A DNA stretch of 63,859 bases, filler included, from Octopus bimaculoides (GCF_001194135.2; 10 parts of 9 records of this genome joined end to end with filler, not necessarily neighbours in it), one strand, 5' to 3'. Counted from the whole stretch's first letter, positions 3,901 to 59,880 are shown. Numbers and translations: made by a program. The notes: generated by a model not told the origin, from the letters alone.

Positions 3901-4048
3901 ATTTAATATTCTTAAACAAGAATGTTGTTGAAAATGACTTTTATGTTTCTGCTAGAAAAGCCATCATCAGACTGCTGACGATGGCTTTCCTACGCGAAAC
4001 TTCGAGACTTGTCATTGTCTACAACATTCTTCTTTAAGAATAATAAAT
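3901..4048. repeat. fold-back of two diverged inverted copies, each starting with a hammerhead-like core
   Basis: Arms 3901-3970 and 3975-4048 are reverse-complementary. Each reads CTGA(T/C)GA...GAAAC...GTC outward from the centre. Confidence 0.7.
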
Positions 4049-6986
4049 ACACACACACACAAACACACCTGTATATACATAAATACACACACATATATAT
4101 ATGCACATATTACACATACATACAAATACAGACATTCAAATATATATATATGCATATATATGTGTGTGTGTGTGTGTGTGTGTGTGTGTGTGAGTTGGAC
4201 ATTTTACTCTGAGCCTCTCTGAAAACTGAATCATTTACTTAGAAGTAATCTTATTTAAGACATTTCAGTAAATGATAAGCAGATATTTTGTTACACTATT
4301 CTATCGATTTTGCATCGTTCTACTGTATCTCAGTAAGGCAATGTAACTGTTTGTGTGACATAGTCATAGAAGTGTAACGAAATTATTTGACACTTCATAA
4401 TAATACGTTCTATCTAGGAAAACAAAAATTAAAATGTGCCTGAGTTTTTAAGGGATTATCATACGAAGTCATTTTTAGATTTGGGTTACGTTTAAACTAT
4501 TCAGGTTTAGTATTTATAAATGTGCATGAAAATATATACGATTAATTGTGAGTAATAAGGTCCTGAGTATGAGTTCAAACTGCATCCGGTACTAGGTCGC
4601 TAGCTCGGGATTTACAGGGTTTTGAGGAGTGTGGAAGCTCCTCTTGACTTTTGTTCCCAACTCTGCTCTGGCCCAGATTAGTAGTACGTTATCGAGTTCT
4701 CAACTATGGGTTAAATAGCATGAAACCACCTGAGTCAGTGCACTTTGAAATCGTGTGATGCAGCATAATGGATATTGCAGAAGATGAACTTATTGAGTCA
4801 GTGGAAAACATAACTAGATACTGAGCAGATGAGTACACAACGAACTCACAACGTTCAGGATCATGCACTTTAGTTAGCGAATTATTGTTATTATCTGTAA
4901 TCGTGGTGTGCACAGATGGGCTGCTATTTCAGCTAACGAAAAACTAATATTATTAAAACATACGCCAGATATTCATGTCTCATCATTCGATCAGGACATC
5001 CCATATGGAACAGTTACATATTGGTCGGGGCAAGATTGTATGGTGATGATCAATAATGATCCACAACTGTTTCGTTATTATCAATCCAAGTAGAATGCAT
5101 ATACTATTATACAATTTACCGAATACACCATAAACTAACATACTTAAAATATTTTATAGAAAACTCAAAATCTTCTGGTATCAATTTCTGCCACAGGTCA
5201 AACTATACTGCACGAAATTATATACGTGATTTTGATTATGGAATTACCATTCGCTAATCTTATTTGTATCACAGTCACTCTCTGTTCCTTATGCTCTGAA
5301 TTTAAATGAGATTGTACTACTTGCTTTATTAATTTAAACTTTATATCAATACAACCTAATGGATTTAATTTCTGAAAAATCAATCACTTACATAATGTGG
5401 TAAAGACGTCAGTGCAATAGCAACAAATAGTAGCCAATTATTCTCGCATTACGCACTATTCTCTTAAAAGCTCATCTTCAATAGTTAGTCGTAAATAAGC
5501 TATATTTGCAGATCATAGCTGATTTATGACTACACTAGCCTCTGATCATAAATCTGCTAAGTTCGCTACGGCGCACAGTATTCTATAAAAATTGATATAT
5601 CTATATAATCTGAATAAATCACCTTGATATTTCAATAAATCGATAGGAATAATAGCACATAACTAACACTAATCAAGCGGCACTTCTGTTAATATAGTTT
5701 TTTCTTCATGTGAAAAATGTCTTTTAGCATTACCAAGGGGTTGGCCTTTCCGAAATATATCGAATCATTACAGAATTTGCTATTTCAATATACCAAAATA
5801 ATCTTAAACACACCAAAGTATTTTATATTTCAATTATTGACTTTCACTACCTTCCAAGACAGATCATTACGTTTCTGGGATATACCTGCTATCTCTGTCT
5901 CTCATTTCCATGCATAGACTATTTGGGACTGCGAAGTATCAGGGTATAATTAAAGTGTATTTTGCACCGTGTTAGTCCCGCATCAAGTGACGAGATATCA
6001 GCGCCTTCCGTTAGTTGCTAATATGCTAATATGCTTGTATATATGTATATATATACATACATATATATNNNNNNNNNNNNNNNNNNNNNNNNNNNNNNNN
6101 NNNNNNNNNNNNNNNNNNNNNNNNNNNNNNNNNNNNNNNNNNNNNNNNNNNNNNNNNNNNNNNNNNNNNNNNNNNNNNNNNNNNNNNNNNNNNNNNNNNN
6201 NNNNNNNNNNNNNNNNNNNNNNNNNNNNNNNNNNNNNNNNNNNNNNNNNNNNNNNNNNNNNNNNNNNNNNNNNNNNNNNNNNNNNNNNNNNNNNNNNNNN
6301 NNNNNNNNNNNNNNNNNNNNNNNNNNNNNNNNNNNNNNNNNNNNNNNNNNNNNNNNNNNNNNNNNTATAATTTTCCAGAGGAAAATTTCAAAGTTAAAAA
6401 CCTTATATATATATATATACTATAAATTAACTAACAACAAAAATAATTGGTAAGCTAATTAAAAAAAATCATCACCAAAATAGCAGAGAAAAACGACAGT
6501 GAAGGTATGCAGACTCTTCAAGAATCGATCCTTTTGGTTATATTAATAATAATAACGGATTTACTACGCAAAAACGTATATATTCAAACGAACATATTTA
6601 TCTTCTTCAATATATATTTCAGTATAAAGAATTCATTAAGAGACTTAATAAATCAAAATTTCTTTACACATCTTCAGGAATAACTATAAGATCAGAAAAA
6701 TATACATTCGGTTTAAAAACACAAACCGTTCATGGCGAAACAATTTCACAATTACACAAACGGAACAAAATTTTTAAAGTTTTAGCAAAAAAAACGCTAT
6801 TACCTTCATGCAGTCATCCTCAAATGCGCCCGTACACACACGCACATACGTTCATGCGCGCACACACGTGCACGCTCACATGCATATGTATGCATACACA
6901 ATCAAGCAAAATTAACAAGTCATAAACACACACACACACATCCACACACACACACACACATATATATATATATATATATATATATA

Positions 6987-7086
6987 NNNNNNNNNNNNNN
7001 NNNNNNNNNNNNNNNNNNNNNNNNNNNNNNTTAATTAATTAANNNNNNNNNNNNNNNNNNNNNNNNNNNNNNNNNNNNNNNNNNNN
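6987..7086. other. assembly spacer 44N-TTAATTAATTAA-44N
   Basis: The same 12-mer sits inside N runs at 7031, 8823, 34822, 37452, 49065, 50377, 57938, 61449 and 62688. It carries stops in all six frames, so it is an artificial join. Confidence 0.95.
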
Positions 7087-7195
7087 GGGGGTATATACAA
7101 ACTCTTTATATATGCCCACCTGAAGAGATGTAATTCACTTCTGTTGCTGAGATGATGATGATGATCATGATCATGATGATAACAACAACAACAGC

Positions 7196-57427: not shown

Positions 57428-57487
57428 CGACAAATATCATAGATAAGGGTAACAGAAGGACTATGACCAATGTAACTGTGAATATAT
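57428..57487 (-). CDS. TMEM272: TMEM272-like, preceding 60-nt coding exon
   Basis: TTCCAG acceptor and G|GTGAGT donor, phase 1/1. Encodes IFTVTLVIVLLLPLSMIFV-G (cf. LALPLSMTFIG) in frame with the terminal exon. Confidence 0.88.
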
Positions 57488-59539
57488 CTGGAAGGAACAT
57501 ATAAATGAGCATGAAAATATAAAGATACACTAAGTCATGAATATCAATTGTTTTCTGTCATATCTGTGTGTGTGTGTGTGTGTGTGTGTGTATAAATATA
57601 TTGAAAAAAAGAAAAAAAATGGAACAAGAACATAACAGGTGACAGCAAAACATCTGGAAAGTATGTGCAACCGAAACCCCTAGGGGCATCCTGAAGGACG
57701 ACCCAGATAGATAGATATTATACTGTTTTTTATCTTTGTGGGTGGATACTACTACATTTTAACATGACACCCAAACAGGTTAAATCAAAAAAAAAAAAAA
57801 AACTGCTCAAGGCATGTCTATTAAAATCTTAGATTAAATATTATTTACTTAATGTATCAAATGTCATCATTCTGCTTCCAAGAAATTACTAAANNNNNNN
57901 NNNNNNNNNNNNNNNNNNNNNNNNNNNNNNNNNNNNNTTAATTAATTAANNNNNNNNNNNNNNNNNNNNNNNNNNNNNNNNNNNNNNNNNNNNTGTCAGG
58001 CTCATGAGGGTCGGTTTCCAGGTTTCAATGGCGTATATATTCCTCGCCAGGGTTACTCATTTTTGCCAGATAAGTAGATGGAAGCAACGTAATTGAAGCG
58101 TTTTGTTGAAGAATACATGTCGCCCGGTCCAGGTATCGAAATTGCAATCTTACTATGAGTCTAACGCCCTAATCACTAATGTACACTTCTATATACATAA
58201 TAGGTTGTCCATTTCTGTGATCTTCTTCCTAGAGGTAAGACAAAAATTTTCTCATGCTCTCAGCCCGAACATATCTTTTCCTCTATACATTCAGTAAAGC
58301 ATTACCTAGTGTCGAATGCTTATCGACTGCTATTTCCAGCAAAAATTGGTACCTTGTTGCGCCACTATTTTCTGATTATAATTCTACTTTTACGGTGCTT
58401 TATTTCGTTGGAAAATAACACTATTCTATGGAAAATAATTCTACTGTATTGTAATAATATTTATAACTTATATATATATTTATAACTTTATATATATATA
58501 TATATATATATATATATATATATATATATATGTATGCACGCACACACATACATATGAGTGTTTGTGTTGCGCACATGAGAGAGAGAGAGAAAATAAATTG
58601 CTACTCACAGCTCTAGGTAAGTTTTCATTGAATTTAAACGTCGAATTGAAAATCAGAAGAAATACAAAGGAACTGCTCCAGCCTATGGAAGGATATAAAA
58701 ATAGAAGAGAATCATTGCTTTCGTAGATGAGGGACATATCATAGATATCATGAAGATATAAATATAATTATTAATATAATAACAGTGAGGTGAGTTTTAT
58801 TGAGATGAGGGGAGCTGACAAGGGATTCACTTAATTTACAACTGACAAATGCATGAATTCCACATGTTTATATTTCTTTTGTTGATGACACCAGAGAGCC
58901 TATACAGCTCAAAAGAGCTTGCAAAATAAGTAAAATGTTGGCCCGTTTATATTCTGTTACTTTATCATAGTTACAGCTTTACCGCCGCTTGTAGTCAATA
59001 AGTAACTAACGGAAGAACAATCCGTTTTAATCACAAACCAAAACATTTTAACAAACCGACAGAAATTACATCAATGTAATCATACACATACATAAATATA
59101 AACTCACATTCATACAAACGCATAGATAGAGAACAGTCATATACGCGTATCTACCCACAGAATATATTACGCATAGATGCACATTCACGTAAATACATCT
59201 TCATAAACACACACACATTATTTATTGACAGGACGCAATACATGTCTTTATGTGCTACTAATAATTTCATATGTTGTGAAATATCACAAGCATATTATTC
59301 AGGTACAAGCTACATATCGTAACGAATGAATAAAATTGAATAAGAGAGAAAAAGTTCAAAACCTGAGAAGGGAACATATAGAAAACATGGAAGGTTAAGA
59401 AAACGGAAAACGAAAAATTTAAAACTAAGTGCTAAAAGTAAAAGAGAAAAAAAATTAAAAGAGTTATCCCCTTAGATCTTAAATTACAAGGATGGAAAGA
59501 TATCAACAAGGTAATCAGGGATAGGTGGAGTTTTCCAAT

Positions 59540-59880
59540 TTCAAAATATATTTATACATGTTTCCGACATAAGAATAAAGAAATGCTACTAAGTTGGCTA
59601 ACCATGTTGGAGTTTGAAAGCTAACAAAATACCACATGTGTTTAAGTGGAAAAGAAACTCAGAAATCCACACTTTATGTTACTGGGTCAAATAAATATAG
59701 GCTATGTTTAGCTGAAAAAGCTCAAATGCTTTTCAAATCTAGGATCCCTAACTTTCAACTGAAATTTAGGTCTAGAATTCTCAGCTGTTGAAAACGAATA
59801 TAAAAAAATATTTTGAAGAATTGGAAAATCCTTGTTCTGAAGAGTAACTTCGTTAGGATAATTTACTACTTCCAAGGTTC
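59540..59880 (+). mobile_element. Penelope-like GIY-YIG C-terminus followed by a decayed hammerhead
   Basis: CFRHK..NATKLANHVWSLK..KW..YVTGSNKYRLCLAEKAQM..RSRILSC across frameshifts; CTGAAGA-GTAACTTCGTTAG-GATA at 59837-59860. Confidence 0.72.

What the first reader, a model, noticed from the sequence alone, without database searches (positions are those of the whole stretch)
3901..59880. Window-wide Penelope-like element system: RT and GIY-YIG remnants, hammerhead cores and fold-back palindromes
Seen: PLE RT pieces (29515-29900, 36555-37080), GIY-YIG pieces (28200-28710, 59540-59815), one intact hammerhead (52473) and three partial or decayed ones (3901-4048, ~26425-26453, 59830-59877). Six long inverted repeats also occur (3901, 12342, 26269, 27201, 28037, 28495). 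Established: PLEs carry hammerheads in their pLTRs and often integrate with inverted pLTR copies. Inference: many of these palindromes are footprints of PLE fold-back integration, implying abundant ribozyme-bearing elements that protein-based annotation misses.
Basis: partly seen in the sequence, partly recalled or inferred. Interest (0 to 1): 0.72.

Follow-up and report, generated by a model that had tools for sequence, protein, structure and literature searches.

The report
Penelope mirror-image insertion stumps
The six DNA palindromes are separate short insertions left by six different families of Penelope-type jumping genes, a layout already described in animals, and their unequal arms likely arise because both cut strands of the target DNA start copying the element's RNA at two fixed points, not because the new DNA folds back on itself.

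Summary
Real but largely known. All six palindromes exist, and each belongs to its own high-copy family in G000. Each is a 5'-truncated Penelope-like element (PLE) end plus an inverted truncated copy, with a tail on one arm; 10-13-bp target duplications were found where targets are not microsatellites. Three families run into RT/GIY-YIG ORFs elsewhere in the genome. Two are ORF-less ~350-nt retrozyme-like units; for two no ORF was found. All carry a type I hammerhead-like motif. Both RT and both GIY-YIG remnants are confirmed. Corrections: the window is a pack of ten stretches, not one system. The 26427 hammerhead is complete, 59830 is not a hammerhead, and motifs at 6677 (complete) and 59302 (decayed) were missed. 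Fold-back of the new DNA is contradicted: the inverted arm is often the longer one (13 of 19 and 7 of 19), while its outer end is fixed about 55 nt inside the tail. Two-site twin priming fits best (inferred). In one family, 12 of 46 arm ends stop about 10 nt upstream of the ribozyme core, likely at the RNA start. The scan noted twin priming and promoter run-off earlier in other genomes.

The parts
3816..4048 (.). Family F head-to-head stump. Tail-bearing arm on minus (3816-3970, tail about 85 nt), short arm on plus (3975-4048). Each arm starts 0-4 nt before a decayed type I hammerhead core.
6400..6760 (-).
12342..12529 (+). Family G stump: inverted arm 12342-about 12435, main copy 12436-12529 with 57-nt tail, probable 10-bp duplication with one mismatch. 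The family runs into a GIY-YIG ORF and carries a minimal hammerhead-like motif upstream of this copy's ends.
26240..26570 (.). Family C (Hydra-type pLTR) stump. Minus arm runs across the 10-N gap to the family's long 3' end; plus arm 26343-26570 ends at the short end. Tail about 98 nt.
26423..26516 (+). Complete type I hammerhead with long stem II; predicted cut after 26505.
26941..27506 (.). Family E stump. Tail-bearing arm on minus across a 179-N gap (tail about 92 nt), short arm on plus. Both arms begin 7-11 nt downstream of the family's predicted hammerhead cut.
28025..28235 (+). Family D stump with 10-bp duplication (28025-28034 / 28226-28235): inverted arm to 28074, main copy from 28075 (at the predicted cut of the family's U3-A8 hammerhead variant), tail about 55 nt.
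28227..28386 (+). Old GIY-YIG remnant (family K, CX2-5CxxC + CCHH type), left part.
28375..28708 (.). Family B stump (about 350-nt hammerhead unit, retrozyme-like) inserted into the GIY-YIG remnant; 12-bp duplication 28375-28386 / 28697-28708; tail-bearing arm on minus.
28697..28790 (+). GIY-YIG remnant, right part (matched by eye to relatives).
29511..29988 (-). Broken PLE reverse transcriptase (Hydra type); not attached to any palindrome.
36472..36810 (+). Broken PLE reverse transcriptase of the same type (appears by eye to extend to about 37050).
52474..52743 (+). Family A copy: 5'-truncated about 350-nt retrozyme-like unit with intact minimal type I hammerhead (core 52479, predicted cut after 52509). 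No inverted arm; its 5' side abuts another repeat.
59240..59560 (-). Family J 3' UTR arm with decayed hammerhead (core 59302), head-to-head with the GIY-YIG piece; 32-bp overlap.
59562..59831 (+). Broken C-terminal part of a Hydra-type GIY-YIG domain (family J).

Best explanation
Each palindrome is one insertion of a Penelope-like element or of its non-coding client, made of a truncated end plus an inverted truncated copy, and it was likely built by twin priming. Shown: the two arms have two fixed outer ends (with and without the tail), variable inner ends, short microhomology at the joint and, where the target is not a microsatellite, one 10-13-bp target duplication around the whole unit. Inferred: the GIY-YIG domain would nick both target strands about 12 bp apart. 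Each 3' end would prime reverse transcription of the element RNA, one at the outer start and one 52-57 nt (families A, B, D, G) or 85-98 nt (C, E, F) further in. The two cDNAs would stop independently or run off the RNA 5' end, then anneal by 1-6-nt microhomology and be repaired into a head-to-head repeat. The template is likely mostly uncut RNA starting just upstream of the hammerhead; cut RNA may serve in a minority. The window's RT and GIY-YIG pieces are separate dead insertions of the helper families.
For: Samples picked only by the tail or a shared 3' stretch (30 loci fetched per family). G: 19 inverted, 4 not, 7 cut by gaps; outer end at -51 to -63 in 18 of 18 usable; 12-13-bp duplication in 9 of 19. 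D: 19 inverted, 8 not, 3 gaps; outer end at -54 to -60 in 13 of 15; 12-13-bp duplication in 9 of 19. B 25 of 30, A 10 of 29, E 16 of 29 inverted; F 20 of 29. Longer arm inverted/main/equal: D 13/5/1, G 7/7/5. Junction overlap 1.8 nt against 0.68 at random (17 G joints; 2 with inserts left out). Non-majority bases shared by both arms: 41 against 12.1 expected over four families. ORF links: C 2 of 20 loci, including an inverted pLTR-RT-EN-pLTR unit; D 3 of 15, plus 8 of 11 stretches picked by the protein; G 3 of 30. 5' pile-up: 12 of 46 D arm ends at -197 to -200, about 10 nt upstream of the core (p 4e-10 if ends were uniform and independent); 10 of 20 unselected F arms end 8-20 nt before the query start, about 30 nt after a TATA-like box. 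In vitro, a PLE protein cuts and extends both strands from two RT starts that bound the tail, and uses uncut RNA (PMC11167929).
Against: All evidence is sequence anatomy; no intermediate was seen. Arms of one locus are hardly closer to each other than to other loci (B 9.4% against 9.7%), and shared variants can also come from gene conversion or collapsed assembly. Some insertions have tails on both arms (5 of 10 A, 4 of 25 B) or on neither (1 E), so start choice is not strict. A, B, E and F were never seen joined to an ORF, so their helpers are inferred. G's 5' ends spread over -195 to -219 with no sharp point. Rfam does not recognise the motifs and cleavage is untested. Samples are the best-scoring 30 of 40 listed hits, so they lean to young copies.
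Confidence: 0.7

Rival explanations
1. Fold-back or self-priming: the nascent cDNA, or an antisense transcript, turns back on a short palindrome and copies itself (the first reader's wording; self-priming on an antisense template was proposed in PMC3846280).
For: Joints carry microhomology, sometimes palindromic. Arms share rare variants. 5 of 19 G pairs have equal arms.
Against: A folding cDNA cannot make the inverted arm longer than its template arm, yet it is longer in 13 of 19 D and 7 of 19 G loci; in L195 the main arm is little more than the tail. Most joints are not palindromic, and one captured 142 foreign bases (L186). An antisense-template variant is not formally excluded.
Confidence: 0.15
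2. The palindromes are mobile units in their own right (MITE-like, or a palindromic master copied as a whole).
For: Searches with the whole palindrome return many similar palindromes. F palindromes often share a centre.
Against: In samples not picked by the centre, breakpoints differ from copy to copy, one end has a tail, many copies have no inverted arm, and three families run into PLE ORFs. The shared F centre matches a 5' boundary of the template.
Confidence: 0.04
3. The short arms are mainly copies of hammerhead-cleaved (or circular) RNA, so the palindromes record ribozyme cutting in vivo.
For: E: 9 of 42 arm ends at +7 to +11 after the predicted cut, in 5 loci including the window's own. 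D: 4 of 46 ends within 2 nt of the cut (p about 0.04), and the window's D main arm starts there.
Against: Many arms read through the cut (A 13 of 36 ends upstream of it, B 17 of 53, E 7 of 42; all 20 inverted F arms). The strongest pile-up is upstream of the core. G has 1 end at its cut. The E pile-up could be RT stalling at stem I or an AT microhomology.
Confidence: 0.1
4. Assembly artefacts: gap-adjacent palindromes made by short-read scaffolding.
For: 26269 and 27201 abut N gaps. The 26269 arms are 73/73 identical and share a base seen in 1 of 18 family copies.
Against: Beyond both gaps lies the family's long 3' end, as the tail rule predicts. Four palindromes have no gap, three of them with target duplications. 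Old pairs have diverged arms (60/69, 116/125).
Confidence: 0.03

Closest known systems
Insertion units of endonuclease-bearing Penelope-like elements (Craig et al. 2021, PMC8557442, Fig. 2 legend; Arkhipova et al. 2013, PMC3846280)
   Same: 5'-truncated copy with an adjacent inverted 5'-truncated copy, tail at one end, target duplication, hammerhead in the pseudo-LTR, (TA)n targets.
   Different: Tails here are 52-57 or 85-98 nt rather than the 30-40 nt described. Most insertions are ORF-less stumps of 150-450 bp. The arm geometry argues for two primed cDNAs, not self-priming.
Hydra-clade PLEs (PMC8557442, section 11)
   Same: Families C, H and J: C-terminal GIY-YIG with no cysteines between GIY and YIG, CxxC and CxH motifs around the conserved E/N, hammerhead (C, J), TA targets; CxCX5C linker in J.
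   Different: The linker motif is not visible in the family C copy read (Asn-rich insert); no tree was built.
Neptune/Nematis-type PLEs (PMC8557442)
   Same: Families D, G and K: C-terminal GIY-YIG with CX2-5CxxC linker and CCHH cysteines (Pfam PF01541, E 1e-5 to 2e-6).
   Different: The D hammerhead has a U3-A8 core pair and U17, so canonical descriptors miss it. Neptune against Nematis was not resolved.
Metazoan non-LTR retrozymes (Cervera and de la Pena 2020, PMC7229834; bioRxiv 10.64898/2026.07.22.740005)
   Same: Families A and B: about 350-nt non-coding units with a type I hammerhead, in partial tandems; mussel units are 350-390 bp.
   Different: Mostly truncated monomers with PLE-type inversion, tail and 12-bp duplication; circles and self-cleavage not shown.
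PAc of Anolis in vitro (Frangieh et al. 2024, PMC11167929)
   Same: Two adjacent RT start sites bound the tail; both strands are cut and extended; uncut RNA is the substrate.
   Different: The main text read does not explain the inverted copies; the link to them is my inference.

Membership tests
EN+ Penelope-like element | One ORF with PLE-type RT and GIY-YIG endonuclease | tested here: met
   L322: 436-aa frame with RT motifs and C-terminal PF01541; L330: RT and EN between family C repeats. Met for C, D, G and for the window remnants; not for A, B, E, F.
EN+ Penelope-like element | Adjacent inverted 5'-truncated copy | tested here: met
   19 of 30 G, 19 of 30 D, 25 of 30 B, 10 of 29 A, 16 of 29 E, 20 of 29 F
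EN+ Penelope-like element | Tail at one end only | tested here: met
   Tails of 52-57 nt (A, B, D, G) and 85-98 nt (C, E, F); some two-tailed exceptions
EN+ Penelope-like element | Short target-site duplication | tested here: met
   12-13 bp in 9 of 19 G and 9 of 19 D; window B 12 bp, D 10 bp. Not readable in the TA targets of C, E, F.
EN+ Penelope-like element | Hammerhead motif in the pseudo-LTR | tested here: met
   Descriptor hits in A (12 of 30 loci), C (19 of 20), and in some B, E, F, J loci; variant motifs in D and G. No Rfam support.
Type I hammerhead ribozyme | Self-cleavage | not testable with these tools
   Needs an in vitro assay, as monomer and dimer
Hydra clade | No CCHH cysteines in GIY-YIG; CxxC and CxH motifs; CxCX5C linker | tested here: met
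   By eye in L158, L160 (family J) and L330 (family C, linker motif not seen)
Hydra or Neptune/Nematis clade | Placement in an RT phylogeny with reference elements | not tested
Non-LTR retrozyme | Non-coding unit of 200-400 nt with a type I hammerhead, in tandem | tested here: met
   A and B: 350-353-nt unit, partial tandems in L023, L282, L296
Non-LTR retrozyme | Expressed as abundant circular RNA | tested here: inconclusive
   Only reads mostly 85-95% alike; 6 reads cross the unit joint, which tandem DNA also gives
MITE / DNA transposon | Symmetric terminal inverted repeats and a fixed internal structure | tested here: not met
   Asymmetric ends and copy-specific centres in all six families

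The most novel reading that the evidence does not exclude
The stumps are a genomic read-out of the unsolved PLE integration step. Both target strands prime on one uncut RNA at two protein-defined starts, and arms that reach the RNA 5' end mark a promoter directly upstream of the hammerhead. Tail length (about 55 against about 90 nt) and target type would tell which PLE clade mobilises each ORF-less retrozyme family: A and B by Neptune/Nematis-type enzymes, E and F by Hydra-type.
Probability: 0.5. Interest if true: 0.55.

Novelty: new member of a known kind. Interest (0 to 1): 0.33.

Why it matters
The layout is known, so the finding itself is ordinary repeat content: about 7% of the window's called bases. 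What is useful is the arm geometry. It separates twin priming from self-priming for a class whose later integration steps are still unvalidated (PMC11167929). It also predicts RT start sites, RNA 5' ends and helper-client pairs that an in vitro assay can test. For annotators, such palindromes in this genome should be filed as PLE ends, not as MITEs or miRNA hairpins, and canonical hammerhead searches undercount them.

Tried and rejected
Rfam: only microsatellite-driven miRNA-like hits, none at gathering score and no hammerhead family in the rows shown. Pfam on three window fragments and on several natural ORFs: no hit; only longer ORFs hit PF01541 or weakly PF00078. A search with the family E 3' end found nothing; the tool skips very common words, so a more internal stretch was used. 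I first read D and G as lacking a hammerhead and dropped that after finding variant motifs. The first F end-mapping was spoiled by references containing inverted arms and was redone. The MAFFT alignment of hammerheads across families was uninformative. Sequencing runs: no RNA holder listed. Three raw RNA runs laid on families C and A gave 27-55 and 212-269 reads, mostly 85-95% alike, on both strands, with no pile of ends; taken as no evidence on cleavage or circles. A splice-acceptor reading of the D 5' boundary was rejected because ends include the AG and share no upstream exon. The 2017 paper on dimeric PLE hammerhead variants was not read (one search failed). Stretch 4 (RT at 36472) was not located in G000.
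Full report
Setting. The window is a pack of 10 stretches with many gaps and microsatellites, from a 2.34-Gb genome. Earlier notes call it octopus-like; I did not test this. Four of these were placed, on contigs C5, C44770, C26 and C87989. 'Window-wide system' therefore has no positional meaning.

Observation. All six inverted repeats are real. Local inverted repeats are far above shuffles: 11 against 0-1 in each of 15. Both RT pieces match natural PLE ORFs of G000 (E 5e-45 and 9e-26), as does the GIY-YIG piece at 59579 (E 1e-14). 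The piece at 28272-28367 matches a further family with 1116 first-look candidates. It is interrupted by the 28375-28708 element with a 12-bp duplication. A type I hammerhead descriptor gives 3 window hits (26427+, 52479+, 6677-) against 0.01 per shuffle; a laxer one gives the same 3 against 0.32. The 26427 motif is complete and folds at z -3.94; the 52479 motif folds no better than shuffles (z 0.38). 59830 lacks GAAA. Rfam recognises none of them.

Families. Each palindrome arm finds its own family. First-look candidates, not copy numbers: A (52474) 4070, B (28375) 5071, C (26269) 495, D (28032) 2484, E (27201) 1392, F (3901) 629, G (12342) 1282. C is the pseudo-LTR of a Hydra-type PLE: 2 of 20 loci run into the ORF, and L330 is an inverted repeat-RT-EN-repeat unit. 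D and G are 3' ends of PLEs with a CX2-5CxxC linker and CCHH cysteines. The links are D 3 of 15 loci plus 8 of 11 stretches picked by the protein, and G 3 of 30. A and B are related units of about 350 nt with a minimal hammerhead and partial tandems, like non-LTR retrozymes. No A, B, E or F copy was seen joined to an ORF within 1.5 kb, judged from the positions and strands of tblastn hits. D and G failed the canonical descriptor (0 of 15; 1 of 45, and that one of another family), but both carry a minimal motif at the same place. It has a CUGAAGA core in G (24 matches) and a U3-A8 core in D (17 of 18 matches; some loci were fetched twice), with differing but paired stems and U at position 17. 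U3-A8 covariation occurs in nature and is active in vitro (PMC3088659, section 8).

Anatomy. To avoid picking copies by their centre, I searched with the tail or a shared 3' stretch and fetched the first 30 of 40 listed hits. Inverted arm present: G 19 (4 without, 7 cut by gaps), D 19 (8 without, 3 gaps), B 25 of 30, A 10 of 29, E 16 of 29, F 20 of 29. One of two mirror loci was dropped in A, E and F. The outer end of the inverted arm is fixed: -51 to -63 in 18 of 18 G, -54 to -60 in 13 of 15 D, and 49-60 nt inside the end in 13 of 25 B. Tails are longer in C (97-99), E (about 92) and F (about 85), which sit in TA-rich repeats. Duplications of 12-13 bp flank 9 of 19 G and 9 of 19 D units. Inner ends vary. 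The inverted arm is longer, shorter or equal in 13/5/1 D and 7/7/5 G units. Joints overlap by 1.8 nt against 0.68 at random (17 G joints; two with inserts left out). Arms share non-majority bases 41 times against 12.1 expected (E 8/3.1, B 21/7.1, A 10/1.7, G 2/0.25; the G set here included 15 loci picked by the palindrome), though overall arm divergence is close to that between loci. Exceptions: tails on both arms in 5 A and 4 B units, and three B arms that start in the next unit.

5' ends. In D, 12 of 46 arm ends fall at -197 to -200, about 10 nt upstream of the core, and 4 fall within 2 nt of the predicted cut. Two D loci share identical breakpoints, and one was the query source. In F, 10 of 20 unselected arms end 8-20 nt before the query start; 4 longer copies show a TATA-like box about 30 nt upstream. 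In E, 9 of 42 ends (5 loci) lie 7-11 nt after the cut. In A and B many ends lie upstream of the cut. G ends spread over -195 to -219, with one at the cut.

Mechanism. Shown: the geometry above. From the literature: the inverted truncated copy, the one-sided tail and the (TA)n bias (PMC8557442, passages and section 11); self-priming on an antisense template as a hypothesis, and TATA/Inr motifs in pseudo-LTRs (PMC3846280, passages); cutting and extension of both strands, two RT starts bounding the tail, and uncut RNA as substrate (PMC11167929, parts 1-2 of 4); minimal dimer-type hammerheads in PLEs (PMC4209133, passages); an internal Penelope promoter (PMC2377424, passages); retrozymes and their PLE origin (PMC7229834, passages; bioRxiv 10.64898/2026.07.22.740005, part 1 of 5). 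Inferred: staggered nicks prime two cDNAs at the two starts; these stop or run off the RNA 5' end and join by microhomology. One shared RNA is favoured by the shared variants but not proven. No supplements were opened.

Novelty. The structure is in print. I found no paper that explains PLE inversions by twin priming in two searches of the held library (one listing, a review of human transposons, not read; only PMC11167929); subscription journals are not covered. The scan reported twin priming (32 findings), run-off at a promoter (13 findings) and such families in this genome (7 notes) before. These are unchecked notes and not independent support. I had framed the fold-back against twin-priming test before seeing them (note).

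Verdict. New members of a known kind. Interest 0.33.

Noticed in passing
window 6400-6760 (-): A further hammerhead-bearing PLE-type family with a complete motif and U at the cleavage position; 5 of 40 scored loci show an adjacent inverted piece.
   Followed up: partly
window 1-286, 7300-8778, 12591-12858, 13551-14420, 35950-36344, 37515-37606, 42614-43918: Remnants of non-LTR retrotransposons unrelated to PLEs, with a CCHC finger and endonuclease-like motifs; they resemble the R4/Dong type (name recalled, not tested).
   Followed up: no
window 9776-9947, 10588-10999, 17311-17599, 18177-18400, 19260-20019, 24738-25012, 30366-30924, 31971-33029, 50520-50732, 52413-52473, 52755-53061: Many copies of at least three short interspersed repeats, in both orientations.
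   Followed up: no
window 59300-60160; L151, L152, L153: The family J head-to-head junction recurs at three other places at 83-95% identity, in two of them with the unrelated 330 bp to its right, so the compound block was itself duplicated or mobilised.
   Followed up: partly
L186 (family G): 142 foreign bases captured between the two arms of one insertion.
   Followed up: no
families D and G, e.g. L074, L179: The tail holds a 7-8-nt stretch complementary to stem II and its loop in the hammerhead-like motif, in both families; it could be a switch tying RT binding to ribozyme folding, but no covariation supports it (seen).
   Followed up: no
L149, L054/L330: Hydra-type ORFs carry long Asn/Ser-rich inserts inside or before the endonuclease, like the N-rich inserts described in PMC3846280.
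   Followed up: no
window 60826-61241 and 11038-11438: Two roughly 400-bp stretches bounded by diverged inverted repeats (MITE-like); the first holds five copies of a GGTTAG hexamer at 61143-61172.
   Followed up: no
window 21015-21665 and 33564-34777: Near-identical direct repeats on both sides of N gaps (246 bp at 100%; 136 bp at 95%), likely scaffolding overlaps.
   Followed up: no
L328, L332: Family D head-to-head insertions with arms of 0.6-1.9 kb that include the endonuclease, so the stumps are the short end of a size range.
   Followed up: partly
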